Source: a virus
Taxonomy: Duplodnaviria; Heunggongvirae; Uroviricota; Caudoviricetes
IMG/VR virus record: IMGVR_UViG_2585427757_000006
Length of the DNA stretch: 64,000 bases
Reading direction: 5' to 3' (one strand)
Under the pieces are notes generated by a model. That model had not been told where the DNA came from, searched no databases, and worked only from the letters and a program-made list of their open reading frames with translations. The translations under genes were made by a program, and so were the position numbers. Every line of letters starts with the position of its first letter. The stretch's first letter is position 1. Of the stretch, positions 8,734 through 64,000 are shown piece after piece.

Positions 8734-8794
8734 GTGTTTTTCTCTTATCGTTTAGTAACTACATTCTTACATAAATTAAGTAAGCATTTACCTA

Positions 8795-10480
8795 TCATTT
8801 AACGCGTTTGAAAACGTATACGCTGACTGTGATCCCTGTGTCTTCAAACTCGTTGGTAAACGACTTCCCTCTGGCATAAACGTAATTATCCATCGTCATC
8901 CAGTCCAGTATTGGCGCAGTGCCCGGCAATACTGCTACAAGACGCCCGCCGACTTTCAGATGCCCCAGCGCAGCCAGCGTGTGCTCTCTATGACGACCAA
9001 GCGAGTACGGCGGGTTCATAACGATTTTGTCGAACTGATAACCTGCGTTGTCCTCAGACCACTTTATGAAGTCGCAGCAAATCGTGTTCGTATACCCTTT
9101 TCCACGCAGGATATCAGCGAAGAGAGGTGCGATTTCTATGCAGGTAACATCTTCCAGATCGGCGTCAATATAGGCCAGAAGATCCCCACGTCCGGCTTGA
9201 GGCTCCAACAGCTTCTCACCAGGCTTCAATTCAGTGGCTCTTGCAACGTACTCAGCAATCAAGCGTGGGGTAGGGTAGAACTGGTGTGATTTTGTATCCG
9301 GTATTAAACCGGTAGCCACAATCGTATTTAGCGTATGGCCGATGTCATACGGGAACTGCCAGTGCTTTTTCTCCTGCACGCCGCCAATGAAGCTCAGTGT
9401 GCGCTCAAGCTCTTCCACCTGCGACTTCTGGAGAGCTGAATCAGAGAAGTACCATACACCTTTGTCTTTGCTCAATCGCCCGTCACGAAGCGCAGTGCGA
9501 ACCGGCACGGAGATCGTCTTCTGGATTAAACCGAACTGCTTTGGTGCCCGTGTTTTTGGCGCAGTTCGGCATGGCGCGGGGATTGCAGCAGGCATACTGT
9601 AAGCCAGCACCTCATTCAACTTCCAGGCCACGTCAGGATGTATTTCAAAGTGAACGTTGCCGTTCTTGAACATCTTCACGCGCATCAGATTTCCATCGAC
9701 GTTCATCCAGTCACCGGTCTGGCAGTCGTTTGCCCGATACGCAGCTGATAGCACCTCAGCAGTGCGGTTGATGGTAATAAATTCTTTGTGCGCGAAGAAA
9801 TGAAGCAAGACACGCAGATCGTCGATGTAGTCCTCTTTGCGATAGTTCACGCTAACGCTGTCCCGCCAGAAATCAGAAATGCAGTCAGCGATTATCAGCC
9901 GCTCGCTGAAACCATTTGTCTTATTTGTCTTGTGCACAGGACTCAGCGCCTTAAACAAGCCATACACGCGCTCAGAGAGATATTTGTGCCTGTCATTCAG
10001 CAAATTAAGCATCGTGGGTATGACCGTTTCTGCTTTGAACTCCGGTACACCAACGAACTCTTTAACCTTCATCTGGTAGCCGGTTCTGTCAGTTTTGATG
10101 ACTTCCTGTTTGCCCTCTATAAACTGCTCGCGCCACTCATCTCGACGGGAAGCTGGCATGATCAGCAAAACGTTAGTCATGTCCGTGACCTTCCTCCAGT
10201 ACTCGGCCCAAATATTCTGTTTCACCCATTCCAGATCGACTTTATCCAACCAACCTCGATTTAAACGCGAGCGATCTTCATCTGGTCGATGGTTTAGTCT
10301 CAGCAGGCGATTAATCATGTTGTGGCGTTCGTCGCCATAAACGAAGTCGTGTACCTGATACATGAAGGCGATCTCTTTCTCGCACTCGGCCACAATTTCG
10401 TGGATAACGTTCATTTCCTGACGATAATCGATAGCAGTGTTTGAGCTGGCATCGTCGATGATGGAAAGGGCTGTATTCAT
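8795..10480 (-). CDS. putative SAM-dependent N6-adenine methyltransferase with large N-terminal domain of unknown function
   Basis: C-terminal FYPTP, LEPQAGRGDLL (motif I-like) and NPPY (motif IV) in 561-aa protein. Confidence 0.55.
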   Translation of the reverse strand: MNTALSIIDDASSNTAIDYRQEMNVIHEIVAECEKEIAFMYQVHDFVYGDERHNMINRLLRLNHRPDEDRSRLNRGWLDKVDLEWVKQNIWAEYWRKVTDMTNVLLIMPASRRDEWREQFIEGKQEVIKTDRTGYQMKVKEFVGVPEFKAETVIPTMLNLLNDRHKYLSERVYGLFKALSPVHKTNKTNGFSERLIIADCISDFWRDSVSVNYRKEDYIDDLRVLLHFFAHKEFITINRTAEVLSAAYRANDCQTGDWMNVDGNLMRVKMFKNGNVHFEIHPDVAWKLNEVLAYSMPAAIPAPCRTAPKTRAPKQFGLIQKTISVPVRTALRDGRLSKDKGVWYFSDSALQKSQVEELERTLSFIGGVQEKKHWQFPYDIGHTLNTIVATGLIPDTKSHQFYPTPRLIAEYVARATELKPGEKLLEPQAGRGDLLAYIDADLEDVTCIEIAPLFADILRGKGYTNTICCDFIKWSEDNAGYQFDKIVMNPPYSLGRHREHTLAALGHLKVGGRLVAVLPGTAPILDWMTMDNYVYARGKSFTNEFEDTGITVSVYVFKRVK

Positions 10481-10581
10481 AATTACACCATTAAATAATT
10501 TGTTTTCTGATTGGTGTAATTATCGCAAACTTGAAAAGGCATAAAAGCTGCATTCATAGGCGTTACAGCAGATTTAAGGCG

Positions 10582-10605
10582 TAAAAATGGGGGCTGTCGC
10601 CCCCT
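10582..10605 (-). terminator. rho-independent terminator
   Basis: gggggcgacagccccc hairpin followed by a T-run on the minus strand. Confidence 0.6.
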
Positions 10606-10621
10606 GTCGACTGGTGCTGTA

Positions 10622-12697: not shown

Positions 12698-12845
12698 GTG
12701 GACTCCATCCAGTGTCAGAAAGAGTTGCGGCTGGCGATTGCCAGCCGCTTTTCTCGTTCCATCCTGGAACTGTGTCTTACCGACACATTGTCATCCTGAC
12801 GCCGATAAGATACATGATTTAAAATGATAGGTAAACACTTACTTA

Positions 12846-13436
12846 CTATTTGTTATAAACAAAACCAATATCTTTCTTGTGAGGCATATCTGCTGCTGAA
12901 AAAGCTGCGATCTTCGCGAGTCGATCACATATTTCATTTTCACGATGCCCGGCGTGACCTTTAACCCACTTCCAGCGAACATTATGTCGACTTGCGGCCT
13001 CATCCAGACGCTTCCACAGATCAACATTCTTTACCGGTTTTTTGTCAGAAGTCATCCATCCATTGCGTTTCCACCATTTCATCCACTGTGTCATGCCGTT
13101 TTTCAGATACTGGCTATCAGAGTGCAAAATAACGTTGCATGGATATTTCAAACGCTCCAGCCCGATAAGTGCCCCCATCATCTCCATGCGGTTATTGGTG
13201 GTGCTATGAAAACCATCTGAGAACTCGCGTTCCTCACCACGATACTGGAGAACGATACCGTAACCGCCCGGGCCACCCGGATTTTTAAGGCAAGAGCCAT
13301 CACTAAAGATTTTCACGGTTTTAAGCTGGGGATTGAACTCTACGACAGGCGTTGTGGGATTGGTGCGGGGGGAATTTTTGTTTTTGGCTTTTTTGCGAGT
13401 TTTTGCTTGCGATCGGGCTGGTGTCTTCGTCGTCAT
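12846..13436 (-). CDS. rnhA: ribonuclease H (RnhA-like)
   Basis: [34 protein letters not shown] motifs; start set at MTTKT with SD aggag; basic N-terminal extension. Confidence 0.85.
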
Positions 13437-14018
13437 ATAAACTCCTGAATCAAGCGCCGCGCCGATTTTTCCTCGCGCGTGCGCACACGCGTGCGTGTTA
13501 ATAATTATTAAAATAAACAAATTACTTCCCAGAACAGGTTTTTATAAACCTGAACTGAACGAACGAAGTGAGTGAAGTTCACCTCGAACGAAGTGAGAGG
13601 TTGTCTTTTCAGGTAATACTCTCCCAGGGAGGTGAGTATAAAAATCTCTCACCAACCTGGTCGTTTCATAACCTGAAAAGTTATGGTCTAAGTCTACTGC
13701 CAGCTTAGACTTGGGAAGTTATGGATGACAGCACCCCAGAACCGAGATCTTCCCACACTTTATGAAGGGGAGTACTGGATTCAACCTCTCGAAACACCCC
13801 AGACTCGACAATCATAAAGTGACCCTTGTCTCTGCTCACTTTGGTTCCCCCTTCCCCGACACCTAAACGGCACCAGTTCTACGCTGGTAGTGAGCTTTTT
13901 TAAACCTGACGCCAGTGACGCTTACCCCCACCCATCAGGTCGAGTCTCCAGTCTACGACTGGAAACTATCAGATCTTAGCACTTACAATTCACTTTATGA
14001 ATAGTTTGTACTTATCTA

Positions 14019-14273
14019 TCATTGTGATTGATTATTTTCTCTACCATGTAGTTGAACATTCAAGGCAAACACCTCATTGATCAACTCACCTAAAAGCTGT
14101 TCAACAAGTTCGCGATGCTCGCCAAGATGCAAGCACTTAATTGCCCATTCGTACAAGTTGAAAGCCTGCTCACGATCTTTCATCATTTCACGAGCCTGGG
14201 CCAGAAAATCGCTCTCTACGAGCGCAACGACATTAGTCGGGTATGACATGTTGGTTTCCTTAAAGTGGTTCAT
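14019..14273 (-). CDS. hypothetical protein
   Basis: 84-aa ORF. Confidence 0.35.
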   Translation of the reverse strand: MNHFKETNMSYPTNVVALVESDFLAQAREMMKDREQAFNLYEWAIKCLHLGEHRELVEQLLGELINEVFALNVQLHGRENNQSQ

Positions 14274-14434
14274 AAAATCGATTTTAAAGCGTCTGCGAAG
14301 GGGTTCTAGTGGATTCTGTAGTTATGTTCAGGTCTGGAGTCTCTGATACAAAACAGCCTTCTTCCGTATATTAATAATTAATATGTAGTTATTTATATAT
14401 ACAGAAGCAGGCTAATTACAGACACCAGAACAAA

Positions 14435-15028: not shown

Positions 15029-15211
15029 CTTCTTTCTCGATAGGTAAGTAAATACCTATTTTTGCATTTGATTTTATGTCTGGCAATCAAATAAAACGCG
15101 CCAGAAATGCAAACGAGAAGCTCTCTGGCGCGTTTTTGTGGTGCTGGGTATGTGATTGACTTACCCAGTACTATAAAGCTCTCTATGGGCTTTATTTTAA
15201 GTAGGGGAACG

Positions 15212-18759: not shown

Positions 18760-19890
18760 TCACACCGCCACTGGAACCTTGATCCACGGTAGAGGGGCAT
18801 AGCCAAGAATAAGAATCTCGTCCCATTTGAAATCATCCAGCTCAGACCATTCATTAGGGAATATAACGACCGGATCTGAATGCTCTGGAGCCTGTCGTTG
18901 CATTAGCTCACACACACCTTCCATGTGGTTGTTGTACAAATGCACGTCAAAGCCAAAATGCACAAATGCACCGGCCATGTGACCCGTAATCTTCGCGAGA
19001 AAATGAGTGAGAATGCCATAGCCAGCAATATTGAATGGCATACCAACAAAAGTGTCTACGCTACGCTGTACGAGGCAGGAGTTGAGGATGCGTTTGGGGA
19101 TTCCAAGTTCATCCAGTTCAGCTTCAGTAACACTGCCGTCTATCTCCAGATCGTATAGCATCTTGGTGTAGATAGACTCGTAACCGAGGCGACTGTGTTG
19201 AAGACCAATGTCAGTTGCCATCGTTAAACGGGTTTCAAAATCCAGCTCACGACTCCACAAAGAGAAGACAAAGTGGCAAGGTGGCAGTTTCATATCCTCA
19301 AGCTCGCCTACGTTCCATGCGTTAAGCATGATGCGACGATCGGTAGGGTTCGTGCGCAGTGTATCGACAATACGCTGTAGCTGATCGATTTCACGGGACA
19401 GCACTACGCGATCTTCACTGATACCCAGGTATCCCTCGACTTTGTACCCGCGTTCACGGAAAGTAGCGATCTTGCTCAGATATTCACTATGGCTCACGAT
19501 GCGGGTATCTTCCCATCGACGCCACTGCTTACCGTAAACCGGCCCCAAATCGCCATTCTCATCGGCCCATGCATCCCAAATCTTAACGCCGTTATCCTTG
19601 AGAAATTGGATGTTGCCCGTGCCTTTCAGATACCACTCAAGTTCGACAAGCAGTGGCTTAAGATTTACCGCCTTTCCAGAAATAAGCGGCACAGTCCCAC
19701 CAGTAAGCATGTAGTAAGAGGGAACGTAGCAGGTGCTTAAAGTACCAGTGCCTGTGCGATCATCAGCCTGCACGCCGCTTTTAAGCACCGTCTCAATAAC
19801 TTTTGCATACGATGCGTTTGTTACCTGACCGTTCGTATGCTCACGATTCAAAAGGAGTGACACAAAAACCTCACAAAGATAAGTAACCAC
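18760..19890 (-). CDS. thyA: thymidylate synthase with two internal insertions; start codon uncertain
   Basis: DRTGTGTLS, WADENGDLGPVYGKQWR, RRIMLNAWNVGE, PPCH, MPFNIAGY, C-terminal PLPWIKVPVAV; track ORF begins at a GTG. Confidence 0.85.
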   Translation of the reverse strand: MVTYLCEVFVSLLLNREHTNGQVTNASYAKVIETVLKSGVQADDRTGTGTLSTCYVPSYYMLTGGTVPLISGKAVNLKPLLVELEWYLKGTGNIQFLKDNGVKIWDAWADENGDLGPVYGKQWRRWEDTRIVSHSEYLSKIATFRERGYKVEGYLGISEDRVVLSREIDQLQRIVDTLRTNPTDRRIMLNAWNVGELEDMKLPPCHFVFSLWSRELDFETRLTMATDIGLQHSRLGYESIYTKMLYDLEIDGSVTEAELDELGIPKRILNSCLVQRSVDTFVGMPFNIAGYGILTHFLAKITGHMAGAFVHFGFDVHLYNNHMEGVCELMQRQAPEHSDPVVIFPNEWSELDDFKWDEILILGYAPLPWIKVPVAV

Positions 19891-19927
19891 TTATTCATTG
19901 CGTGAGTTTACATTTATTGAGAGAACA

Positions 19928-19955: not shown

Positions 19956-20034
19956 ATAGGCCACCAAAAACGAATAGTTGTTTCAGAAATTTAACGCGCC
20001 AGCGCAATATACACAGATAGATAACTACCTACAA

Positions 20035-20904
20035 TTATTTTTTGATCATTCCGTACATTGCTGAGGCTTTAGCTTGCTCAACAAAGGAGGATAAATCGAC
20101 ATCACTATAGGTTGGAGACTTCAGAATCTTTCCATCGGAAATTCGAAAACCGATCATCTTATCGGTGCCATCAGCATGGCGAAATCCCAGGTCAGAAGAG
20201 TCGTATTTGCAGTTGGCCACAGCATGGCGACGCTCTTCGGCATCTGCAGGCCATAATTTTGTCATGTTGGACCGATGAATTTCGCCAACCAGCTCGACGA
20301 CATTGATACCGAGAAAATCAGCCAGTCGATAAGTCATCATGCACGCCACATAGATTTTGTTCATTACACGGCGCAGTTCCTGAATCAGCTCAGAATCCTT
20401 AACAGTCTTCTTCTCAAGTTTATCTGCCAGCTCTTCGAGCATACATGACGCCTCACGAGCTTCCTGAAATGGCATTGCCATATCATCGAAAACAGTGTTA
20501 CCAGGCACAAAAATTGTCTGCATAAAGCGATCAATGCTCTGTTCCTGCGTGTAATAAGTCATGCCGGTAGAAATACCACCTTTGATGGCGACCATCGTAC
20601 CAACACCAACGTATAAAAAGTCGGCCATTGCATCCAGCAGTTGCTCAATATCCCCATTCATTGCGGCTGGAATACCTTCCACTACAGCTTCTTCATGAAT
20701 CAGGCTTGCACGGAGACGAAGCAGCTCTGGTGTCGGCATAACGCGTCTCGGATGCTGGAAGAGTTCATGAAACTGATCGACCATCTTGTAAATACTTTCA
20801 GTGGCTACACCATGGCCTTCATGCAACTCATATGGTTCTGGCTTAAATCCAATGAGTCGATCGGTGGCAAGTTTCAGGTGGTCAGTCAGTTTGGTAAAGT
20901 TCAT
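20035..20904 (-). CDS. hypothetical protein, possibly MazG/HisE-like nucleotide pyrophosphohydrolase
   Basis: 289-aa ORF between thyA and nrdB; acidic helical EE-x-D pattern only weakly suggestive. Confidence 0.3.
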   Translation of the reverse strand: MNFTKLTDHLKLATDRLIGFKPEPYELHEGHGVATESIYKMVDQFHELFQHPRRVMPTPELLRLRASLIHEEAVVEGIPAAMNGDIEQLLDAMADFLYVGVGTMVAIKGGISTGMTYYTQEQSIDRFMQTIFVPGNTVFDDMAMPFQEAREASCMLEELADKLEKKTVKDSELIQELRRVMNKIYVACMMTYRLADFLGINVVELVGEIHRSNMTKLWPADAEERRHAVANCKYDSSDLGFRHADGTDKMIGFRISDGKILKSPTYSDVDLSSFVEQAKASAMYGMIKK

Positions 20905-24546: not shown

Positions 24547-24619
24547 GTATCACCAAATAAAGAGGGCCACTAAATATAGTGGCCCATGTTAATAGATAAG
24601 CACTTACCTATCAATGAAA

Positions 24620-29163: not shown

Positions 29164-29417
29164 GTGTTTTTCCTTTGTGGTTATTTTGATACAAATTTTA
29201 AGAGCAATGAGAAGGTAAACAACTATGCATAACGGTATGTTAGGAATGAAACGAGCGTCTTAATATACAAAACTTATAAGTAAGTATATACCTATTTATT
29301 GTGGCGCAACTTTGCTTGTCTGTATGACTAAAAATAAGACAGGATCACTGTAGAACGCTATGAGAGCTATTTTGAGGAGGCGTAGATTCTATCTACGCCA
29401 ATATACGATCTGGAGGG

Positions 29418-32781: not shown

Positions 32782-32820
32782 GATAGGTAAATGCTAACTT
32801 ATATATTTTTGCTGTAAATA

Positions 32821-33098: not shown

Positions 33099-33159
33099 GT
33101 TTTCTCCTTGTTGGTAAGTACTTATCTATCTTAATGGACGCTATAAGGCGCACAATCAT

Positions 33160-42519: not shown

Positions 42520-42609
42520 GTGTTTTCCTATGTGGCTATTGTGTGTAGATGGTGAGTAAGTGTTTATATATTTTCAAGGTATAAAGGCGTCCATTCGGAC
42601 GCCTGAAAA

Positions 42610-45985: not shown

Positions 45986-46102
45986 GTGTTTCTCCTTGTT
46001 GTGATTTGGCCGATGGCGCTATGCGCGTTGGGCTTTCGTTCATTCGTGGCTCTTTCGAGCTGTTAAATGATAGATCAGTACTTACTTATTATCTATCAAA
46101 AA

Positions 46103-48561: not shown

Positions 48562-48609
48562 TTCTAAGACTCACTAAACAAATTGTTTTCTTATCTTATA
48601 AATTAATTC

Positions 48610-52389: not shown

Positions 52390-52484
52390 GCGTTTTTCCT
52401 TTGTTCTCTAATGAGCGTTCAACTTCTTATATAAATATATCATCATCTATCGTAAGTAGTTACTTATCGTTAAGGCTGTTTTGT

Positions 52485-54593
52485 TCACTTTAAAATGATA
52501 CGAGATAGTTCAGTAACTACAGATGAACCAAGACTATCAACGCTCGTTACCAGGGCATGATTTGAGTAAAATCTCTCCGGTGCGTCAGTCATGATGCCAA
52601 TTGCCATCAAATCAATATCAGTCTGCGTTTCAATTTGCTTCGCAACTGAACGCAAATGAGCGTCAAAACCTCTCCCAACAGCCCACGGCGCGCCATCACT
52701 CAGAACAAGCATGATCTTCCTGTCCTCCATGCGACCGGAAAATAACGATGCAAGGCTGGCTATGCTTTCACCATCCACGTTATTAAGAAGTGGGAATGTG
52801 TAGCCTACGCACCCCATACGTGAGCGAACTTCGCGAGAATTTACCTTTTCATTCCAATTTTTGATGATAGGTAGCATTAAAGATTCAAAGCGAGAGAACT
52901 CATACTTGACAGCCTTAAGTTCTCCTGCCGCCATATGACTACCAAATGTAGTGAAGCCGGTGATAATGTTGGGAACATTTATTCGATCAAGGGCATCGGC
53001 GATGGTATATGCACTTGCAAGAGCCAGTTTAATCGTTATACCACTCATTGAACCTGATAAATCAATCACTTGTTGAACACAGGCGTTAACGGCTTTAGAT
53101 TCTTCTTTTTTACGAAACACGCGAGCATCATTCATTGCTAATCTGTAGATACTAGAACCATGAATGCGCCCCCGACGCTGGCCCGGTATAAACTGAACTC
53201 TGTTTCTGCTTGCTATTGCTCGCTCCAGGTCTTTTGCCAGCGTCGACGAAACACCTGACGAAAGATGCTTTTCAATATATTTGTCGAAGAGCTGGTTGCC
53301 TTCAGGAACGATGCGATAGCGGCTGATTGGATATCCTCCCAAATCAATATCGGAGAATGTTTTAATAAGCCGTTTGATATGGGCTTCTGCCTGATCAATG
53401 GAGCCGATGAAGTCGTATGAGCGATTGTATGGCCTGTATTCGCTTTTCGAGCTTTCTGTTAACTCGCTTTTAATCGTTTCGGATAGCGCATCTTCTGTCA
53501 TGCCTCCGACTTCATCTTCCATGCTATCCAACTCCTCTAAAGCCTCTTCCAGACTCATTTTTGACGGAGTTGGGATATCTGAAGAGCCGTCTTCTGTCGT
53601 TTTTCTTTTTTCGTGGTCAGCGGTTAATGATTCTGACGCCGCGTTATCAGAAGCATCAGAATCTGATACCTCTTTATCATTTTCTGTATCATCGAATATT
53701 GTTTCTGATGATTCAGAATTATCTGAATCATCACTGTCGTTATTATCATGTTTGTGCTTACTATGTGATTCTGATTTGATAGATTTGTGGTTATCTAACA
53801 CTGAGGGTGTCTCATGATCTTCGTTGTCTTCACTGTTTTCTCCAGAGGCATCCGTCTGGTCAGCGTCTGAAGGATCGGAAGTTTTTCCCGGAGCTGACTC
53901 CTTACCTTTGCTTTCACTTTCAGTGTCTTTGAGGATCTTAGCTATGGTCGCAGCCACCTTTACACAATCCTCGGTGCAAGACATGTTACGCACGGCCACA
54001 TCGATACCATGTTCTTTTAATAATGAAATTGGTTTCTCAATGACAGGCCAATATTCATCCATGAAATCTACGAACGGTGCTTGGCCATCCCAGGCTCTTA
54101 CAACCGGACAGAGAAAGAAGTTTAGAAAAAGCGCGCGCTGATCTTTGCCACAATAAGCAATAGCCTCTGAAGCCTTTGGTTTAAAGACTTTTTCGATTAT
54201 AAGGCGCTGAGTTGCCATCAGATTACGTCTTGTTCCGTTAAAGACCTGACCCATTTTTCGCTCGATGAACACGTCTTCTAAGGCATTCCATAGCGACCAG
54301 GAAGGAACGCGTCCTTTTTCTCTCATTTTGTTGGACACACGAATATCGGTAAACAAAATGTGAGCAACCTCATGATCGAGAAATCCGCGCACAGCATTCA
54401 TCAATGCCGGTGTTGCGTTATCCGGGATTGATGGGATGTTTACGAGAATTGGCTCTCCATCATCGTTATAGCGTACATAAGCGTCGTCCCCTCGTTCTGC
54501 AACAGGGATGTTTTTACCTGAAAGGAGAGCGACTACTCGTTTTACACTGTCACGGAAGTCCTGAACCTCTTTGATGGAACGTTTTTTAGACAT
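52485..54593 (-). CDS. von Willebrand factor A domain protein (CobT-like partner of the AAA+ ATPase)
   Basis: MIDAS motif VIDLSGSMSG; long acidic Ser/Asp-rich low-complexity linker. Confidence 0.65.
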   Translation of the reverse strand: MSKKRSIKEVQDFRDSVKRVVALLSGKNIPVAERGDDAYVRYNDDGEPILVNIPSIPDNATPALMNAVRGFLDHEVAHILFTDIRVSNKMREKGRVPSWSLWNALEDVFIERKMGQVFNGTRRNLMATQRLIIEKVFKPKASEAIAYCGKDQRALFLNFFLCPVVRAWDGQAPFVDFMDEYWPVIEKPISLLKEHGIDVAVRNMSCTEDCVKVAATIAKILKDTESESKGKESAPGKTSDPSDADQTDASGENSEDNEDHETPSVLDNHKSIKSESHSKHKHDNNDSDDSDNSESSETIFDDTENDKEVSDSDASDNAASESLTADHEKRKTTEDGSSDIPTPSKMSLEEALEELDSMEDEVGGMTEDALSETIKSELTESSKSEYRPYNRSYDFIGSIDQAEAHIKRLIKTFSDIDLGGYPISRYRIVPEGNQLFDKYIEKHLSSGVSSTLAKDLERAIASRNRVQFIPGQRRGRIHGSSIYRLAMNDARVFRKKEESKAVNACVQQVIDLSGSMSGITIKLALASAYTIADALDRINVPNIITGFTTFGSHMAAGELKAVKYEFSRFESLMLPIIKNWNEKVNSREVRSRMGCVGYTFPLLNNVDGESIASLASLFSGRMEDRKIMLVLSDGAPWAVGRGFDAHLRSVAKQIETQTDIDLMAIGIMTDAPERFYSNHALVTSVDSLGSSVVTELSRIILK

Positions 54594-54691: not shown

Positions 54692-54904
54692 TTAACAGAT
54701 TCTGACGGCTAAAGACCCGGAGCCGATATTGAGAAGCGTGAAGCGTTTGTTGTTAAGTTCGAATATAAAGCCAGTTGTGTCATTCACACCAACCTGAATC
54801 TGCTCATTCGGTAGATCGGTGAGGATGTCAGCTACACACTCATCAGCTAATTTCTGTACGTGTCCGATCTCAAGAGCGATTAGGCTGGAAATAGTGGTGT
54901 TCAT
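54692..54904 (-). CDS. hypothetical protein
   Basis: 70-aa ORF. Confidence 0.3.
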   Translation of the reverse strand: MNTTISSLIALEIGHVQKLADECVADILTDLPNEQIQVGVNDTTGFIFELNNKRFTLLNIGSGSLAVRIC

Positions 54905-55154
54905 TCAATCAATCCATTCTAACTTATACTATGGTAAGGAATACTACTAAAATTTATATCAATACTGAATACATTCATATCATATGCAAGTTAATTTTCT
55001 TACCTGTTTTGGGCTAATTTTTCTCCGTGCAATGGCCTTTAACCGGTCTTTTAAGTGTCTATCGAAAAAATGATAATAGCTTTACAACCCTAACCTTTGA
55101 TGTAATATCGGTAAGCACTTACCAGAGAGAATTGAACGCGCAAAGGTTGTAACA

Positions 55155-55541
55155 ATGTCTGACAACAAGATTGAATTTATAGAAAGTCGCTATGCTGCTT
55201 TTATCGCAGGGCTGATTGAATCCTCACCTATGAGTCAGGCCCAAATAGCCAGACTTATTGGTTATAAAAATGCCAACAACCTTTCTTTAATTAAAAGTGG
55301 CAAAATTCCTTTGCCTATCGATAAGGTTCGTCCGTTGGCGCTGGCGCTGGGTATTGAGCCAAGTCGTCTTATGATGATGGTGCTGGAAGAACGCCAACCT
55401 GAACTCGCAGCATTTTTATACAAAGAAGGCACCGCTCCTCTTAACGAGGACGAAAAACAGGTTCTTGCTGCATATAACGAGCGATTCGGTAAAGAGAAAG
55501 GCGCATCACAAAAGGTTGTTGAGGCTATAAAGTCTCTATGA
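55155..55541 (+). CDS. helix-turn-helix transcriptional regulator (XRE-like)
   Basis: MSQAQIARLIGYKNANNLSLIKSGK HTH; one of few plus-strand genes, convergent with the recombinase. Confidence 0.6.
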   Translation: MSDNKIEFIESRYAAFIAGLIESSPMSQAQIARLIGYKNANNLSLIKSGKIPLPIDKVRPLALALGIEPSRLMMMVLEERQPELAAFLYKEGTAPLNEDEKQVLAAYNERFGKEKGASQKVVEAIKSL

Positions 55542-57900: not shown

Positions 57901-58073
57901 AACTTAACAAATACCTTTATAAATATTGATTCGAACATATCAGACTATACTACAAACAGATTTTTTTGATAAGTATGTAGTAACTTATTGATTGACTAGT
58001 AAACAATTGAAGTGATTACGACAATAGATTACAGTAAGGATTGCCTTGAAATGTACATTTTATAGAGGTTTTA

Positions 58074-59471: not shown

Positions 59472-59547
59472 TGGTGCCGGTTAGCGGACTCGAACCGCTG
59501 ACATCCTGCTTACAAGGCAGGCGCTCTACCAACTGAGCTAAACCGGC
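59472..59547 (-). tRNA. tRNA-Thr(UGU), CCA encoded
   Basis: gccggtttagctcagttggtagagc D-arm, anticodon loop cttgtaa, T-loop ttcgagt. Confidence 0.75.
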
Positions 59548-59551
59548 AATT

Positions 59552-59638
59552 TGGTGGGGAGTGATGGAGTCGAACCACCCGAGTCGCAATGACAGTAGAT
59601 TTACAGTCTACCCCGCTGCCCCTACGGACTAACTCCCC
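59552..59638 (-). tRNA. tRNA-Tyr(GUA), long variable arm, CCA encoded
   Basis: Acceptor ggggagt/actcccc, anticodon stem gtaga/tctac with loop ctgtaaa, T-loop ttcgact. Confidence 0.65.
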
Positions 59639-59643
59639 TAAAT

Positions 59644-59718
59644 TGGCGATGGTGGGTGGATTCGAACCACCGACCAGTTGGTTAACAGCCAACTGCTCTA
59701 CCGCTGAGCTACACCATC
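59644..59718 (-). tRNA. tRNA-Asn(GUU), CCA encoded
   Basis: Acceptor gatggtg/caccatc, D-arm gctcagcggtagagc, anticodon loop ctgttaa, T-loop ttcgaat. Confidence 0.75.
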
Positions 59719-60470
59719 AATTCAGCACTGCCAGTATTTATTACTCAACAGTGCCAATCGCGACGGTTTAGTTTCTGCCAGGAAACGCACCGCTACTTGC
59801 ACTTTTCGTTTGTGCCAGACGCTTTCGACTTCGCTCAATAGTAGAAGGCAAAATCTTTAAGTAGATGATGTTTCTGAGGACAGCACCTACTTTGTAATTT
59901 ATACAATGTGATGTATGGAATCATTTGTTGTGAAAACAGGCACCAATGGCAACAGTGGTTAAACCTACACAACAATCCTGTCTTCACAACGTTGAGGCCA
60001 CTACTCCGATTGAATGTTTGCCCAACATGTTACATATCAACGCTCGCCGGTATCTCTGTGAATAGAACCTTAGAATTGATAAAAATGTAATGGCCTCAAC
60101 GTTGTGTGCTGGCTAACCATACCAGCCGGGCTACGTCGCCGCTTTTTAACCCAGTATAAACGACATAATTGAACAAAATGACGTAACAGGATGGGCGGTC
60201 AGTGGCTAAGAATCCGGGAGTCATATGGAGTTGAAAATATACCAACCGCCCATTCTGTTCCCTCCTGCGTTCTGCAATCACACTCGCTCAGTGTGTCCCA
60301 TTTCGGTAACGAGGCTGGAAACTGACCTCGCTGGTGTTTGGCTTATTAGGCTACTGCCAGATAGACTTCTTCGTTTGCACTTGTATTTAAGTTCAAACAG
60401 TCGCGTCTCAACGAAAACAAAGTCATCTTATACATAAAAGATAAGTAAGTAAATACTTATCAATATGTTT

Positions 60471-60761
60471 TTATTCGGTTGTGACTTTTTTGATCAAGGC
60501 CACTCTACGACTAGGTGTTCTTGTAATGGTGGCAGTGAATCGTTTCGCTTGGATAGTAATGGTTTCGTTCTCCTTAAGTTGCCCGTAGCGAGTTTCCACC
60601 AGGGTGCCAAGACGCCACAGACCATCATCGATACGTTTATGACTAGCAAATTTAATCAGCAACAGTTTTACGACTAACTGACCTACGTAAAAGGCGAATG
60701 CGACTCCGGCCGCTAAGAAATAGGTGGCCAACCACCATTCCCAAGAAGTTAAATTGCTCAT
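60471..60761 (-). CDS. membrane protein, N-terminal transmembrane helix
   Basis: 96-aa ORF; WWLATYFLAAGVAFAFYVG. Confidence 0.4.
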   Translation of the reverse strand: MSNLTSWEWWLATYFLAAGVAFAFYVGQLVVKLLLIKFASHKRIDDGLWRLGTLVETRYGQLKENETITIQAKRFTATITRTPSRRVALIKKVTTE

Positions 60762-60910
60762 TTTTTCACCTTTGTTTCATGAACTACCCGATACACACGC
60801 TTTCCGATGCACAGTGTTTTGGTTTTAAGTTCCTGCTTAATTAAATCACGACAGATGCCGAAGCCGATAAGGAAGCCACCCATAAAAGCTAATGAGATGT
60901 ATGGAATCAT
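60758..60910 (-). CDS. small membrane protein, 50 aa
   Basis: MIPYISLAFMGGFLIGFGIC; SD aggag; stop overlaps next start (ATGA); below track cutoff. Confidence 0.4.
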   Translation of the reverse strand: MIPYISLAFMGGFLIGFGICRDLIKQELKTKTLCIGKRVYRVVHETKVKK

Positions 60911-61122
60911 TTTAACACTCCTGATTCTACTAATTGCTGTAGCAATACTTTCCCTTTATCAGTTAACTGGTAGTTGGCCGAACACCACGTTTCAGAAACG
61001 TTTGCAACCAACCCTAAACGCTCTAACTTAGCTCGCGTTTTAGGCTTCCAGTACTCAGGGAACTCCGGCCACTTACTGATTTCATGAAGCGTTTCCTTCT
61101 CCCGTTTACTTAATACGATCAT
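60907..61122 (-). CDS. hypothetical protein
   Basis: 71-aa ORF, overlapping starts and stops with neighbours. Confidence 0.4.
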   Translation of the reverse strand: MIVLSKREKETLHEISKWPEFPEYWKPKTRAKLERLGLVANVSETWCSANYQLTDKGKVLLQQLVESGVLK

Positions 61123-61285
61123 CCTTAATCTCCTTCAGGGTGTTGGTTATTTCTACAATGCGATAAATACGACCGCGTCTTTCTATAACACCGCTTTTAA
61201 TGTAGTCATTGATGCAACTGGACATCACCACAATACCTATGAAAAAACCAACTGCTAAAAATGCAATCATCCAGCCGAGCATCAT
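61106..61285 (-). CDS. small membrane protein, 59 aa
   Basis: MMLGWMIAFLAVGFFIGIVVM; start overlaps ligase stop; below track cutoff. Confidence 0.35.
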   Translation of the reverse strand: MMLGWMIAFLAVGFFIGIVVMSSCINDYIKSGVIERRGRIYRIVEITNTLKEIKDDRIK

Positions 61286-62604
61286 TCTTTATCTCCGATT
61301 CGATCTTCTGTATCGCGTAAGCAACGCGGCCATTTCAGTCGGGGGTGGCGTAAGCTGCCATCCGGTGTTTTCTCGTGACAATGAACCTCAACAATACGAC
61401 CACGGTACTTCTCTTTGTTGTTCCAGATCTCGTCCAGATATTTATGCTTAATACCGCTCGCACGAACGATGACGCCGTTTTCAAGACGAATAACAATTTT
61501 TCCAAGTGTGTTGGCAAAACCAGAGTCCGGGTCGCCCGGCTCAAAGTCGATAATTTCACCATCTTCTGAATCTTCGTCTTTTAACTTCCACCAGCTGCGG
61601 GTACGTTTAAACTCGTAAACAGAGTTCGGATCTTTGCCCATCTCCCCTTCTTCGTTATCGTCCAGGCGTTTCATGAAGCGTTCGATGAAGTCTTCGTGGC
61701 TATGGATGATATAGAACGGATGCAGGTGAATATCTTGTGTGTAGCCTTCACTGCGATCGTTTTTGAACAACGCCACCAGCATAGCCAGGCGCTCTTTCAG
61801 CTTCATACCTGTCTTTGCATACTCTTTGGATTTAGCCTGTGCTCGCCATTCCGGTAGGAAGAAGTCGAAAACATGATAAATAGCGCCAATTGCCTGCACG
61901 TTCTTTTTGCGCAATGCAGATACGGACTGGTTAAATGAACCGGCAGTTCCTTCACCATCGAAGAAGATGTGTTTGTGGCCTGAAAGTTTGCCTAATTCGA
62001 GCATGGCTGGCTTTAGGTGATCGAGAGACGTGATTGGATTACCAGTACGAGAAAGGAAGTTAACCTCTTCCTCGTCAACAATAACCTCGCAAATTACTCG
62101 CAAACCATCGAGCTTAAGACTGCCAATCATTGGCCATTTTGCTTTAGGATTTGGCTTGAAGGGGTATTTGTCGCCTTTTTCTTTATACGGTGACGCCAGC
62201 TGCACCTCGAATTTCGGAATGGGATTTTCAAAAACCTTGTTGCATAGGCTAATCCCAACGCCAGCTTTCGGGTCTTTTAAGAGGAAACGACGGAACACGT
62301 CCTGCCCATCGGCGCACATTGACGCCACGATAGACTCAACAGCTGCTATTGCTGCGTTCCCCGTTAGCTCGCGAGAGGCCAGCTTGTTCAGTACATCAAT
62401 GGCTTTTTCGTCACTTGGGATGGACTCACTAAGCGGCTCTGCCACTTTGTATTTCTTTACCCCAAAACGGATGAAAGGGTTGAGCATCAATGAAACCATG
62501 CTTTGCTCGAAGTCATCCATGTTGGCCAATGCCTCTTTTTTTGCATTGGTTCCCATAGCTTTCATTTCGTCCAGCTTATGCTTAAGTGCGATCAACTTTT
62601 TCAT
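61282..62604 (-). CDS. ATP-dependent DNA ligase
   Basis: Adenylation lysine motif KLDGLR; 440 aa; OB-fold-like C-terminus. Confidence 0.75.
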   Translation of the reverse strand: MKKLIALKHKLDEMKAMGTNAKKEALANMDDFEQSMVSLMLNPFIRFGVKKYKVAEPLSESIPSDEKAIDVLNKLASRELTGNAAIAAVESIVASMCADGQDVFRRFLLKDPKAGVGISLCNKVFENPIPKFEVQLASPYKEKGDKYPFKPNPKAKWPMIGSLKLDGLRVICEVIVDEEEVNFLSRTGNPITSLDHLKPAMLELGKLSGHKHIFFDGEGTAGSFNQSVSALRKKNVQAIGAIYHVFDFFLPEWRAQAKSKEYAKTGMKLKERLAMLVALFKNDRSEGYTQDIHLHPFYIIHSHEDFIERFMKRLDDNEEGEMGKDPNSVYEFKRTRSWWKLKDEDSEDGEIIDFEPGDPDSGFANTLGKIVIRLENGVIVRASGIKHKYLDEIWNNKEKYRGRIVEVHCHEKTPDGSLRHPRLKWPRCLRDTEDRIGDKE

Positions 62605-63083
62605 TGTTGTTTTACCTCCATATGTTGATCGATTTGCTCATGTGTTTCTTTTGTTGTTTCTTCAAGCAACGCCGCATACACGTCAGTGATCGCTGTTTGT
62701 GATGTGGTGCTCTTCTTAACCATGCTATTAATCGTTACACTGTCACGTTTTCGTTTTAAAGTTCTGGCTTGTTTATTCCGTTCTTCAACCTCCTTAATGA
62801 GCGCGGTCATATCTTCGAAATACAGAGATTCTCCTTTACGAATCTCTTCAACCATCATTTTTAACGCCTTGCATTTGCCTGCTTTGATAGCGGTTGCGCA
62901 CGACTGGAATGAAGTTCGAGGAAGACGGTTTTCTTTGAAGGCAAGAATGGTGTGCTGGCAAACGGAGTAGCTGCAATATGCCGACTCACCGTTTATCTTT
63001 ACTTCCTCACAACGAAGTGAATAACCATTATTTCCTGAAATAGAGGGGATTTTTGACAAATCAGCTTTCACAATTACCGCCAA
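62601..63083 (-). CDS. hypothetical protein with N-terminal Cys/His cluster
   Basis: 160-aa ORF; ATGA overlap with ligase start. Confidence 0.4.
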   Translation of the reverse strand: MAVIVKADLSKIPSISGNNGYSLRCEEVKINGESAYCSYSVCQHTILAFKENRLPRTSFQSCATAIKAGKCKALKMMVEEIRKGESLYFEDMTALIKEVEERNKQARTLKRKRDSVTINSMVKKSTTSQTAITDVYAALLEETTKETHEQIDQHMEVKQQ

Positions 63084-63138
63084 AAATAATCTTGTGCTTA
63101 CCTATCATTATTTGCGTAAAAAACGACACACTGAGAGC

Positions 63139-63915
63139 TTACCAACTTCCCCAGCTAATCATCTTGCGCTGATCGCTTTCTAAGCGATAGGGGACAAGAA
63201 GCTCTGTGACATGATTGGTGGCGTATGATTTAGCCTCTTGCTCTATCATCGGTAATTCGTTAGCAATCCTGACCATCTTCCCAGCAAACTCCGCCATTAC
63301 GCCATCACATGCCTTCCCAGCATCAATAACGATATGCACCAGATCCAACTGGCTTTTGCACATGTCGCAAAGAGACGCATACTCACTCTCTCTGATTACA
63401 TTTACGGCATCATTGGCCCCTTTATTAAGCAAGACTTCCAACAGGTTTGTCGGGGTAACGAAATCTGCTTTCAGAGATAATGTCTTTTCACCACTTATCG
63501 AACGCAAGTACTCTTCGTAGTTATTCTTCATCAAACCGCTGCTGCGCATTGCTAGAACTGCTTCTTGAATGGCCGCTTCAATAGTTTCGTCGTTTGAAAG
63601 ACAAAAAACGGTATTTGTGTAGATCACTCTGCCATCAAGCCATGCTCCAACCTGCACTTTAAGACTGAGCGGGTTTTCTTTGCTAATAAAAACAACTAAT
63701 GCAGAACGCCGTGCACAAGAAGGTTCGCCCCATACGTGTAACTCAACTTTCAGATAAGGCAACCCTGGTAGCGGGATCTCGTCCATACGAGCAGCGATAT
63801 GATTCATTGCTGTATTGACGGCCTTTCCAATGATGTCTAGTCGACTGCCCTCGCTGATTTCTAAACCTGTTTTATCAATGATGTCACAGGCCAATTTCTG
63901 AATTTCGTCTTTCAT
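63139..63915 (-). CDS. hypothetical protein
   Basis: 258-aa ORF with SD upstream. Confidence 0.45.
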   Translation of the reverse strand: MKDEIQKLACDIIDKTGLEISEGSRLDIIGKAVNTAMNHIAARMDEIPLPGLPYLKVELHVWGEPSCARRSALVVFISKENPLSLKVQVGAWLDGRVIYTNTVFCLSNDETIEAAIQEAVLAMRSSGLMKNNYEEYLRSISGEKTLSLKADFVTPTNLLEVLLNKGANDAVNVIRESEYASLCDMCKSQLDLVHIVIDAGKACDGVMAEFAGKMVRIANELPMIEQEAKSYATNHVTELLVPYRLESDQRKMISWGSW

Positions 63916-64000
63916 ACCAACTCCTAGCTAACAGATGAAAGTATTCTTACAAAAAACTAAGTATGTATCTACTTATCATTTTAGGCGCAATAGTTCCCTA

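What the first reader, a model, noticed from the sequence alone, without database searches (positions are those of the whole stretch)
8778..63977. Second intergenic motif family: palindromic GATAGGTAAGTA ... TACTTA(C/T)CTATC
Copies at about 8778-8797, 12825-12846, 14007-14020, 15039-15059, 24595-24612, 29276-29295, 33113-33130, 46069-46097, 52444-52469, 57968-57988, 60440-61461 and 63958-63977, the 60440 copy being a clear inverted pair gataagta-N6-tacttatc that ends at 60461. All are intergenic, mostly 15-100 bp upstream of gene starts including nrdA, the SSB-like gene and the CobS-like gene. This looks like a second regulon or promoter class, possibly a temporal class.
Basis: seen in the sequence. 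Interest (0 to 1): 0.5.

Follow-up and report, generated by a model that had tools for sequence, protein, structure and literature searches.

The report
Dispersed palindromic repressor operators, phage-plasmid
The repeated 22-base palindrome is real and is most likely the binding site of the phage-plasmid's own helix-turn-helix repressor, scattered at about 20 gene boundaries so that one protein can keep the whole virus-production programme silent while the element lives as a plasmid.

Summary
The window is an SSU5-like phage-plasmid of E. coli (pSLy3/Cyrano type). The motif is a 22-bp palindrome, ideal form GATAGGTAAGTACTTACCTATC. There are 17-20 copies in the window, against about 0 expected by chance. 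Related whole genomes carry 24-33 copies.

The copies are almost all intergenic. They occur only in the co-directional lytic block, structural and lysis genes included, so this is not an early or temporal promoter class. The two halves match a consensus independently, with no covariation and no strand bias, so an RNA hairpin is unlikely. The distance to -10 boxes, ribosome-binding sites and terminators varies, so a fixed promoter element is unlikely.

The only perfect core in the window (GGTAAGCACTTACC, 55110-55123) lies on the predicted transcription start of an Xre-type HTH gene (55155-55541). That promoter-plus-core island is invariant in pHCM2, pMT1 and Klebsiella relatives. Acinetobacter and Cupriavidus relatives carry their own versions of the palindrome, again also next to their diverged HTH gene.

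In published Cyrano lysogen RNA-seq the HTH gene is expressed and the lytic block is silent.

Best reading: dispersed operators of the immunity repressor, resembling P1 C1 operators and mycobacteriophage stoperators. Binding itself is untested. I class it as a new member of a known kind.

The parts
8775..8796 (.). Palindrome copy (24.4 bits). It overlaps the stop codon of the DUF4942 gene and lies 41 nt upstream of the Ead/Ea22-like gene. On the - strand an extended -10 box, TGTAAGAAT, follows 3 nt downstream.
   Evidence: The palindrome plus -10 box is conserved in Cyrano, SSU5 and pJN2-26.
12826..12847 (.). Palindrome copy (25.0 bits). It overlaps the RNase H gene stop codon. A conserved TGTATCTTA -10-like box lies 11 nt downstream on the - strand.
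13999..14020 (.). Palindrome copy (20.4 bits) with a degenerate right half. It lies upstream of the small gene that is CYRAN_81 in Cyrano.
14376..14397 (.). Doubtful member (20.8 bits, AT-rich). It lies in the loop of a long terminator-like hairpin.
15039..15060 (.). Palindrome copy (26.3 bits), 10 nt upstream of the adenine-methyltransferase start codon. It abuts the ribosome-binding site and lies downstream of a terminator.
19878..19899 (.). Palindrome copy (22.9 bits) abutting the thyX ribosome-binding site, after the terminator at 19966-19948.
20016..20037 (.). Weak copy (14.0 bits) overlapping the mazG stop codon, upstream of the terminator.
24591..24612 (.). Palindrome copy (28.2 bits) between ruvC and nrdA. 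It lies exactly between the TTGATA and TAACAT hexamers of a predicted - strand promoter. The terminator hairpin at 24585-24564 follows immediately.
   Evidence: conserved in SSU5 and pJN2-26
29275..29296 (.). Palindrome copy (25.9 bits) upstream of sbcD. The extended -10 box TGTATATT lies 5 nt downstream on the - strand.
32782..32803 (.). Palindrome copy (24.0 bits) abutting the start codon of the CYRAN_60 homologue. A predicted promoter, TTTACA-16-TAGCAT, places its -10 box inside the palindrome.
33109..33130 (.). Palindrome copy (23.7 bits), 13 nt upstream of the ATG of the CYRAN_59 homologue. It abuts the ribosome-binding site.
42551..42572 (.). Palindrome copy (16.9 bits) after the recA-like gene and its terminator, 31 nt upstream of a small membrane-protein gene.
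46069..46097 (.). Palindrome copy (25.5 bits) with an extra overlapping half-site, between the uvsY-like gene and the gp32-like SSB gene.
52447..52468 (.). Degenerate copy (8.0 bits) between cobT-like and cobS-like genes. The orthologous position holds a 13-16 bit site in relatives.
53778..53799 (.). Intragenic copy (18.6 bits) inside the cobT-like gene. It is conserved at the same place in Cyrano, SSU5 and pJN2-26.
55106..55127 (.). Core copy. GGTAAGCACTTACC (55110-55123) is the only perfect core in the window. It starts 2 nt after the -10 box of the HTH gene promoter and covers the predicted transcription start.
   Evidence: The island is invariant in pHCM2, pMT1 and pJN2-26.
55081..55108 (+). 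Predicted sigma-70 promoter of the HTH gene, TTTACA-N16-TAATAT.
55155..55541 (+). Xre/CI-type HTH protein of 128 aa, the homologue of CYRAN_45. It is the proposed binder of the palindromes and lies next to the integrase gene (55536-56639, - strand).
   Evidence: It is expressed at about 10 times background in the Cyrano lysogen.
54692..54904 (-). Small divergent gene (70 aa, PHROG 2627, homologue of CYRAN_46). It is the first gene of the leftward cobT-cobS-dnaE unit, and a conserved half-site lies in its upstream region.
   Evidence: It rises from log2 4.3 to 10.8 in macrophage-grown lysogens.
57968..57989 (.). Palindrome copy (25.6 bits) in the divergent region between the glutaredoxin gene (- strand) and a 302-aa gene (+ strand).
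60440..60461 (.). Palindrome copy (27.4 bits) with perfect 8-bp arms. The extended -10 box TGTATAAGAT lies 5 nt downstream on the - strand, and the copy is upstream of the tRNA cluster.
63085..63106 (.). Palindrome copy (16.5 bits, right half degenerate) abutting the start of the CYRAN_35 homologue.
63956..63977 (.). Palindrome copy (20.2 bits) after the primase gene. The extended -10 box TGTAAGAAT lies 4 nt downstream on the - strand.

Best explanation
The palindromes are operator sites for a dimeric, sequence-specific double-stranded-DNA-binding protein encoded by the phage-plasmid. The most likely binder is the Xre/CI-type HTH protein encoded at 55155-55541.

In the plasmid-prophage state this repressor would occupy about 20 sites in this window and 25-30 in the whole element, at gene boundaries of the co-directional lytic block. 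Where a site overlaps a promoter (over the -35 region, between -35 and -10, or over the -10 box and transcription start), the bound protein would stop initiation. Where a site lies after a promoter, against a ribosome-binding site, or between a stop codon and a terminator, it would act as a roadblock to read-through transcription. Together these would keep replication, nucleotide-metabolism, structural and lysis genes silent.

A weaker, core-only site on the repressor gene's own transcription start would give negative autoregulation.

Shown here: the sites exist, are enriched, are intergenic, are restricted to the lytic block, are conserved as islands, behave as independent half-sites, and sit at the HTH promoter in every lineage examined.

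Inferred: which protein binds, that binding represses, and the roadblock action.
For: 1. Enrichment and location.
2. The two halves match the consensus independently. Pairing between halves is no higher than when halves are shuffled among sites. On the transcribed strand G.U and A.C counts are equal: 19/24, 29/24 and 20/26. This is the behaviour expected of a two-fold symmetric DNA-binding protein.
3. Geometry relative to -10 boxes, ribosome-binding sites and terminators is variable. That is compatible with repression and not with one activation mechanism.
4. Sites occur only in the lytic block: 22 of 56 intergenic gaps there, against 0 of 20 in the accessory region.
5. Phylogenetic footprint: identity is 82% inside the palindrome and 51-54% in the adjacent 22 bp, over 30 orthologous pairs.
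6. The only perfect core in 64 kb lies on the predicted start of the HTH gene promoter. That island is invariant in E. coli, S. Typhi pHCM2, Y. pestis pMT1 and Klebsiella elements, whose HTH proteins are only 57-66% identical.
7. Co-variation: the Acinetobacter relative (HTH 38% identical) has about 33 dispersed copies of TATTAGTAAGCGCTTACTAATA, plus two weak copies beside its HTH gene. The Cupriavidus relative has about 24 copies per 50 kb of AGTCAGT-N4-ACTGACT, with three in the HTH/small-gene divergent region.
8. The protein is of the Xre/CI type.
9. Published LF82/Cyrano lysogen RNA-seq: HTH gene 95.8 against a median of 9.8. The lytic block is at background. Expression steps down across sites: 54.6 to 6.2, 43.7 to 8.8, and 31.5 to 7.5 (PMC9928086 S1 Table).
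10. The near-perfect motif is essentially absent from 185,579 species' genomes apart from roughly 100-kb contigs of Kluyvera. This argues against a host regulon.
Against: - No binding or repression experiment exists. The identity of the binder is inferred.
- SSU5 itself lacks the HTH-integrase segment yet keeps 24 good sites. That fits a recent deletion derivative, as D29 is among L5-like phages, but it also shows that the sites can persist without this protein.
- The E. coli copy at the HTH promoter has only the 14-bp core and scores below 5 bits on the 22-bp matrix.
- One promoter with the palindrome at about -30, upstream of CYRAN_34, is still active in the lysogen (43.7).
- Expression step-downs also occur at palindrome-free terminators, so the RNA-seq data are consistent with the model but not discriminating.
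- The negative trend between site strength and induction in macrophages is not significant (rho -0.33, p 0.13).
Confidence: 0.6

Rival explanations
1. The palindrome is the recognition element of a positively controlled lytic promoter class. A phage activator, or a Cro-like lytic regulator, would bind it and recruit host RNA polymerase to promoters that lack a -35 box. The analogy is to T4 MotA boxes centred at -30, or to P1 Lpa-dependent late promoters.
For: At least four orthologous site groups have a conserved extended -10 box (TGTAAGAAT, TGTATAAGAT or TGnCATAAT) 3-5 nt after the palindrome and no recognisable -35 box. Transcription units that begin directly after some sites (CYRAN_12, 56 and 60) are induced in macrophage-grown lysogens.
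Against: No -10 box lies at a fixed distance across sites. The palindrome centre lies anywhere from about -24 to -42, or downstream of a conserved TTCCAA-N17-TATGAT promoter, or 0-16 nt from start codons. -10-like hexamers at the palindrome edge are as frequent on the mirrored strand. One copy covers the transcription start of the HTH gene. The genes downstream of the eight best-matching sites stay silent in all conditions, the opposite of what an activator site predicts. No sigma-factor homologue is found in the enteric elements.
Confidence: 0.15
2. The sites are operators, but the binder is another element-encoded protein. Candidates are one of the two ParB_N-domain proteins (a KorB/OB-like global silencer), the FljA-like regulator, or the small divergent gene product.
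For: A site lies 16-17 nt upstream of the first parB-like gene in the Cyrano, Klebsiella and Acinetobacter elements. Palindromic dispersed sites are typical of KorB on plasmid RK2 (own knowledge). A FljA-family regulator is conserved in the enteric elements examined.
Against: In the Cyrano lysogen the parB-like genes are at the detection floor (5.0 and 9.5) and the FljA-like gene is at 18, while the HTH gene is at 95.8. No site lies at the FljA-like gene promoter. The HTH gene is the one regulator with a site at its own promoter in all lineages examined.
Confidence: 0.1
3. The palindromes act in RNA as hairpins: processing or stabilising elements, attenuators, or nut-like antitermination signals.
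For: All sites are transcribed in one direction and could fold into 8-10 bp AU-rich stems. Several lie directly before intrinsic terminators.
Against: There are no compensatory changes, and pairing is no better than for shuffled halves. G.U is not favoured over A.C on the transcribed strand. The same asymmetric variants occur in both orientations. Only about 60-70% of positions pair. No Rfam family matches.
Confidence: 0.03
4. The sites are bound by a host factor, or they are recombination or module-boundary sequences with no regulatory role.
For: The sites lie at gene boundaries, and some sit at junctions of variable segments, such as 57968. The Acinetobacter core GTAAGCGCTTAC resembles LacI-family operators (own knowledge).
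Against: The near-perfect motif is absent from representative host chromosomes. The sequence differs between element lineages in step with the element's own HTH protein. Sites are conserved in place where both flanking genes are conserved. They are absent from the most variable accessory region.
Confidence: 0.05

Closest known systems
Phage P1 C1 repressor and its dispersed operators (own knowledge; Lobocka et al. 2004 could not be read)
   Same: Both are plasmid prophages of enterobacteria. In both, one repressor is thought to control many separate transcription units through more than 15 copies of one operator sequence scattered over a roughly 100-kb genome, including a copy at the repressor's own gene.
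   Different: P1 operators are asymmetric 17-bp sites bound by a C1 monomer, and C1 is a 283-aa protein unrelated to Xre-type HTH proteins. P1 operators are not reported in the late structural operons. Here the sites are 22-bp palindromes that also lie between late genes. No sequence homology to C1 was seen or sought.
Stoperators of mycobacteriophage L5 and Cluster A phages, bound by the gp71-type immunity repressor (PMC9283540)
   Same: Both have more than 20 copies of one repressor site spread through the genome, in short intergenic spaces as well as at promoters. These are proposed to stop both initiation and elongation and so silence the prophage. A repressor-less lytic derivative keeps the sites: D29 there (PMC5712189) and SSU5 here.
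   Different: L5 sites are 13-bp, asymmetric, bound by a monomer through two domains, and work in only one orientation relative to transcription. Here the sites are symmetric 22-mers with no significant orientation bias, and the predicted binder is a small Xre-type protein. Roadblock activity is untested here.
KorB and its OB operators on IncP plasmid RK2 (own knowledge)
   Same: A palindromic operator occurs in a dozen copies across a plasmid, at variable distances from promoters, and gives global silencing.
   Different: KorB is a ParB-family protein. Here the ParB-like genes are not expressed in the lysogen, and the sites track an Xre-type HTH gene.
22-bp intergenic repeats of phage T1 and Citrobacter phage Stevie (PMC4319613)
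   Same: A 22-bp repeat occurs in 16-20 copies, predominantly intergenic, in a siphovirus rich in terminators.
   Different: Those repeats are asymmetric, lie in one orientation, occur in virulent phages, and have an unknown role. The sequence is unrelated.

Membership tests
Multi-operator immunity repressor regulon (P1 C1-like logic) | One specific sequence is repeated at many transcription-unit boundaries of the element, far above chance. | tested here: met
Multi-operator immunity repressor regulon (P1 C1-like logic) | The cognate DNA-binding protein is encoded by the element and expressed in the lysogen. | tested here: inconclusive
   An Xre-type HTH gene is present. Its Cyrano homologue is expressed at about 10 times background. 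That it is the cognate binder is inferred, not shown.
Multi-operator immunity repressor regulon (P1 C1-like logic) | An operator lies at the repressor gene's own promoter (autoregulation). | tested here: met
   The core sits on the predicted transcription start and is invariant in four enteric lineages. Lineage-specific copies lie in the same region in Acinetobacter and Cupriavidus elements.
Multi-operator immunity repressor regulon (P1 C1-like logic) | Direct binding, and repression of the adjacent promoters. | not testable with these tools
   This needs EMSA, footprinting, ChIP or reporter assays.
Stoperators (L5 gp71 type) | More than 20 sites across the genome in short intergenic spaces, in addition to promoter operators. 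| tested here: met
   Non-promoter positions include sites against a ribosome-binding site and sites between a stop codon and a terminator.
Stoperators (L5 gp71 type) | An asymmetric site bound by a monomer. | tested here: not met
   The site is a symmetric 22-bp palindrome with equivalent halves.
Stoperators (L5 gp71 type) | Site orientation correlates with the direction of transcription. | tested here: not met
   Upstream and downstream half scores do not differ significantly (p 0.06-0.99 in six genomes).
Stoperators (L5 gp71 type) | Repressor-dependent block of transcription elongation. | not testable with these tools
   Only consistent expression step-downs across sites are available from lysogen RNA-seq.
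Activator-dependent phage promoters (T4 MotA box, P1 Lpa type) | The element lies at a fixed distance upstream of a -10 box, on the coding strand. | tested here: not met
Structured RNA element (hairpin) | Base-pair covariation, and a strand-specific excess of G.U over A.C. | tested here: not met
   no Rfam match
ParB-parS / KorB-OB | The binder is a ParB-family protein produced in the plasmid state. | tested here: not met
   ParB_N-domain proteins exist, but their genes are at the expression floor in the Cyrano lysogen.

The most novel reading that the evidence does not exclude
A stoperator-like, genome-wide silencing system exists in Gram-negative phage-plasmids. A small dimeric Xre-type repressor would bind 25-33 palindromic sites, blocking both initiation and elongation across an 85-kb lytic super-operon. 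Repressor and operator specificity would have co-diverged from Enterobacteriaceae (including S. Typhi pHCM2 and Y. pestis pMT1) to Acinetobacter and Cupriavidus, so that the palindrome sequence defines the immunity groups of this very large plasmid family.
Probability: 0.35. Interest if true: 0.65.

Novelty: new member of a known kind. Interest (0 to 1): 0.5.

Why it matters
SSU5-supergroup phage-plasmids are among the commonest large plasmids of clinical Enterobacteriaceae. An HTH homologue is found in about 1,000 PLSDB records, including pHCM2 of S. Typhi and pMT1 of Y. pestis. Reviews and the papers I could search give no account of how their lysogeny is controlled.

If the palindromes are the repressor's operators, they provide:
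- a sequence-readable map of the lytic regulon;
- a way to predict immunity groups from the operator variant;
- an explanation for SSU5 behaving as a lytic phage, through loss of the repressor segment while the operators remain;
- a simple handle, the HTH gene, for inducing or curing these elements.

It would also show that dispersed silencing sites are not peculiar to P1 or to actinobacteriophages.

Tried and rejected
- RNA-hairpin reading: tested by G.U/A.C strand asymmetry and by shuffling halves among sites. Rejected.
- Fixed promoter geometry: an information-content profile of the flanks and a directional -10 scan showed nothing beyond a symmetric AT extension of the palindrome.
- Orientation bias of the half-sites: only non-significant trends.
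- Phage sigma factor: the Acinetobacter element encodes one, but tblastn finds no homologue in the enteric elements.
- Initial argument that SSU5's lack of the HTH gene excludes it as the binder: withdrawn. pHCM2, of the same group, has the gene, so SSU5 looks like a deletion derivative.
- PDB sequence search with the HTH protein: no hits. Foldseek on a single-sequence AF2 model (pLDDT 73) gave only weak hits (E > 0.1), although all were Xre/CI-type repressors.
- Correlation of site strength with induction in the LF82 RNA-seq: the sign fits a repressor but is not significant.
- Papers that could not be read: P1 genome, Gilcrease & Casjens 2018, the SSU5 genome note, and a 2026 preprint on phage-plasmid heteroresistance.
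- Matches at 40447, 52504 and 58076 are chance or lone half-sites and are not counted as members.


Full report
**What the window is.** Megablast places the window in an SSU5-like phage-plasmid of E. coli. It is 97-98% identical to Escherichia phage CMS-2020a, Cyrano (pLF82) and PhiR41_1. It is about 80% identical to Salmonella phage SSU5 and about 78% identical to Klebsiella elements such as pJN2-26. From about 8.7 kb to 64 kb almost all genes lie on the - strand. By comparison with the Cyrano annotation they form the replication, recombination and nucleotide-metabolism part of the lytic block: nrdAB, thyX, sbcCD, recA-like, gp32-like SSB, dnaE, cobS/cobT-like, ligase and primase.

**Checking the observation.**
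- GATAGGTAAGTA with up to two mismatches occurs 18 times against 3.0 expected.
- TACTTAYCTATC with up to one mismatch occurs 8 times against 0.32 expected.
- Aligning the copies shows a 22-bp palindrome with the ideal form GATAGGTAAGTACTTACCTATC.
- A symmetric weight matrix finds 17 sites of at least 16 bits and 14 of at least 20 bits. Dinucleotide shuffles give 0.05 and 0.
- The matrix was trained on the window, so I also applied it to whole related genomes. It finds 28 sites in Cyrano, 24 in the first 100 kb of SSU5 and 24 in the first 100 kb of pJN2-26.
The hit at 14376 is doubtful.

**Where the sites are.**
- In Cyrano, whose annotation is the authors' own, 26 of 28 sites lie outside CDS although 86.8% of the genome is coding (P about 4e-21).
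- Sites occupy 22 of 56 intergenic gaps of at least 30 nt in the block that runs from the parB-like gene through the terminase, head, tail and lysis genes to the replication and nucleotide genes. They occupy 0 of 20 gaps in the accessory segment at 84.7-105 kb.
- Sites follow terL, the major capsid gene, tail genes M and J, and the tail fibre gene, and precede the holin gene. The family therefore marks the whole lytic programme and not an early or temporal class.
- Many sites begin -5 to +13 nt from the upstream stop codon. The distance to the next start codon ranges from 0 to several hundred nt.

**DNA site or RNA structure.**
- On the transcribed strand G.U and A.C oppositions are equally frequent: 19/24 in the window, 29/24 in Cyrano and 20/26 in SSU5.
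- Pairing between the two halves of a site is no better than when right halves are shuffled among sites, in all four genomes.
- Near-identical asymmetric variants occur in opposite orientations. An example is 8775 on the - strand and 12826 on the + strand.
- Rfam finds only the tRNAs.
- Each half therefore matches a consensus on its own. That is what a two-fold symmetric protein binding double-stranded DNA produces, and it argues against selection for a hairpin or cruciform.

**Promoter element or operator.** An information-content profile of the flanks shows no box at a fixed distance downstream. -10-like hexamers at the palindrome edge are as common on the mirrored strand, so they are only an AT extension of the palindrome. 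Comparing orthologous regions in three lineages shows several different arrangements.
- An extended -10 box (TGTAAGAAT, TGTATAAGAT or TGnCATAAT) lies 3-5 nt after the palindrome, which puts the palindrome centre near -30. This applies to the sites at 8775, 29275, 60440 and 63956.
- The -10 box lies 11-16 nt further downstream, as at the RNase H site and the holin site.
- The palindrome fills the spacer between TTGATA and TAACAT at nrdA. The predicted start then falls in the left arm of the terminator hairpin that follows, which would explain why a promoter can sit just before a terminator.
- The palindrome lies 13-14 nt downstream of a conserved TTCCAA-N17-TATGAT promoter, ahead of the helicase-primase unit in Cyrano.
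- The palindrome abuts the ribosome-binding site or the start codon. This applies to 15039, 19878, 32782, 33109 and 63085.
- The palindrome lies between a stop codon and an intrinsic terminator, as after the major capsid gene and after tail genes.

No single activation geometry fits all of these. All are compatible with a protein that blocks RNA polymerase binding or passage.

**Conservation.** In 30 orthologous pairs (Cyrano against SSU5 or pJN2-26), ungapped identity is 82% inside the palindrome, 51-54% in the adjacent 22 bp and 44-46% beyond that. Two intragenic copies, in the portal gene and in cobT, are conserved in place.

**The likely binder.**
- The pattern GGTAAGNNCTTACC occurs perfectly only once in the window, at 55110-55123. 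Three matches with up to one mismatch are found against 0.02 expected.
- That copy starts 2 nt after the -10 box of a predicted TTTACA-N16-TAATAT promoter. It lies 32 nt upstream of the start codon of a 128-aa helix-turn-helix protein (55155-55541). The protein gives a weak Pfam HTH_19 match and hits PHROG 8, 'transcriptional regulator'.
- The gene lies next to an integrase gene. It is divergent from a 70-aa gene that heads the cobT-cobS-dnaE unit.
- An alignment of this regulatory region from the window, S. Typhi pHCM2, Y. pestis pMT1 and Klebsiella pJN2-26 has 71% mean column identity. The block CTTTACAA...TGTAATATC(G/A)GTAAG(C/T)ACTTACCA is essentially invariant, although the proteins are only 57-66% identical.
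- tblastn finds this protein in about 1,000 PLSDB plasmids. Those listed are mostly 100-120 kb, and most of the closer hits lie beside an integrase gene.

**Co-variation in distant relatives.**
- The Acinetobacter baumannii element p5388_2 keeps the synteny HTH / small gene / cobT-like / MoxR. Its HTH is 38% identical.
- It carries about 33 dispersed copies of TATTAGTAAGCGCTTACTAATA at the same kinds of position: after terL, after the capsid gene ahead of a terminator, and 17 nt before parB. Two weaker copies lie in the HTH divergent region.
- A Cupriavidus metallidurans element with the same synteny carries about 24 copies per 50 kb of AGTCAGT-N4-ACTGACT. Three of them lie between its HTH gene and the small divergent gene.
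- Three lineages therefore have three versions of the palindrome, and each version also sits at that lineage's HTH gene.
- The near-perfect enteric motif has only five exact matches in one genome from each of 185,579 species. Two are in roughly 100-kb Kluyvera contigs and one is in a Klebsiella pneumoniae chromosomal-scale scaffold. The other two, in Flavobacterium and Sodaliphilus, are at the chance level. A host regulon is therefore unlikely.

**Published expression data.** Source: LF82 carrying Cyrano, PMC9928086 Table 1 and S1 Table. In overnight LB lysogens the median Cyrano gene is at 9.8 normalised counts.
- The HTH gene CYRAN_45 is at 95.8.
- The two ParB-like genes are at 5.0 and 9.5.
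- The FljA-family regulator CYRAN_114 (Pfam PF03614) is at 18.
- The whole lytic block is at background.
- Where a gene upstream of a site is expressed, the level drops across the site: CYRAN_30 to 31, 54.6 to 6.2; CYRAN_34 to 35, 43.7 to 8.8; CYRAN_64 to 65, 31.5 to 7.5.

Similar drops occur at terminators that have no palindrome, so this evidence is consistent with the model but not decisive.

In macrophage-grown bacteria the small divergent gene CYRAN_46 rises from log2 4.3 to 10.8. Units that begin just after mid-scoring sites (CYRAN_12, 56, 60) also rise. None of the genes downstream of the eight best sites exceeds log2 5.9 at 6 h in macrophages (6.2 in any condition). The overall rank correlation is -0.33, p 0.13, which is not significant. 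One exception is the promoter of CYRAN_34, which has the palindrome at about -30 and is still active in the lysogen.

**SSU5.** SSU5 lacks the whole segment from the tRNA to cobT, which includes the integrase, HTH and small genes, but it keeps 24 sites. pHCM2, of the same group, has the segment. The simplest reading is that SSU5 is a deletion derivative. This matches mycobacteriophage D29, a lytic derivative that lacks the repressor (PMC5712189). It remains a caveat, because it shows the sites can persist without this protein.

**Mechanism proposed.** A dimer of the HTH protein binds the palindromes. It occludes promoters where the sites overlap them and blocks read-through where they do not. 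The result is silencing of the lytic block during plasmid maintenance. The weaker core-only site on its own transcription start would give autoregulation. The protein has no S24 peptidase domain. Induction by ciprofloxacin, reported for Cyrano, would therefore need an antirepressor or a similar route; this is inference. A single-sequence AF2 model is all-helical (pLDDT 73). Its Foldseek matches are weak (E > 0.1), and most of the top matches are Xre/CI-type regulators: SaPI Stl, a Salmonella phage repressor, C.AhdI and the lambda cI N-terminal domain.

**Comparison with known systems.** In logic this resembles three systems.
- P1 C1 and its dispersed operators (own knowledge).
- The operator and stoperator sites of L5-type mycobacteriophages (PMC9283540).
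- KorB/OB on plasmid RK2 (own knowledge).

It is not a member of the stoperator family as defined. Those sites are 13-bp, asymmetric, monomer-bound and orientation-dependent. These are symmetric 22-mers without orientation bias. T1 and Stevie carry unrelated asymmetric 22-bp repeats of unknown role. I found no paper describing operators or the repressor of SSU5-group elements, but several relevant papers could not be read.

**Verdict.** The best explanation is dispersed operators of the element's Xre-type repressor, with confidence 0.6. I class it as a new member of a known kind. Interest is moderate, because the element family is very common and clinically relevant and the prediction is directly testable.

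Noticed in passing
window 33276-41927: A palindrome-free 9-kb cargo segment lies inside the lytic block. It holds a type I restriction-modification system: HsdM (821 aa), HsdS (426 aa), a DUF4268 protein (387 aa) and HsdR (1005 aa). It also holds an rve-family transposase fragment (228 aa). Cyrano has stomatin-like and hypothetical genes at this position.
   Followed up: partly
window 46661-50973: The dnaE (Pol III alpha) gene is in two ORFs, 48610-50973 and 46661-47830. They are separated by an HNH/NUMOD3 homing-endonuclease-like ORF (47827-48561). In Cyrano the gene is one 3.5-kb ORF.
   Followed up: partly
window about 60350-60440 (- strand), downstream of the site at 60440: After the palindrome and its -10 box comes a non-coding stretch, tttgttttcgttgagacgcgactgtttgaac. 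It is identical in Cyrano, SSU5 and pJN2-26 although the surrounding sequence diverges. It could be a leader or small RNA ahead of the tRNA cluster (tRNAs Asn, Tyr, Thr and Ser at 59161-59718).
   Followed up: no
window 14360-14420; Cyrano 31150-31230 (locus L001): Two related long hairpins, (C)CTGCTTCTGTATA ... CAGAAGCAGG(C/T), each enclose an AT-rich loop and end in a T-run. They look like a separate repeated terminator element. Their loops produce false or doubtful matrix hits.
   Followed up: no
Cyrano 100780-101301 (L003:20780-21301, - strand), outside the window: The gene annotated as 'transcriptional regulator' belongs to the FljA family, the repressor of phase-1 flagellin (PF03614, E 1e-80). 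Counterparts are annotated in SSU5 and pJN2-26 but were not tested here. Its role in a phage-plasmid is unknown.
   Followed up: partly
L069:9298-9963 (Acinetobacter p5388_2, 109298-109963): The Acinetobacter relative encodes a sigma-70-family sigma factor directly after its MoxR/CobS-like gene. tblastn finds no homologue in the enteric elements.
   Followed up: partly
window 56736-56772: A 15-bp-stem inverted repeat, GTAATGATTCCATAC ... GTATGGAATCATT, lies just upstream of the integrase gene start (56639). It may be a recombination site or a terminator.
   Followed up: no
window 1-1888: The first 1.9 kb (GC 54%) has no megablast match in the closest phage-plasmid relatives, which align only from position 1888 onward.
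   Followed up: no
L072 (Y. pestis pMT1, 64290-67521): In pMT1 the conserved HTH-integrase switch region lies directly beside the caf1 (F1 capsule) operon.
   Followed up: no
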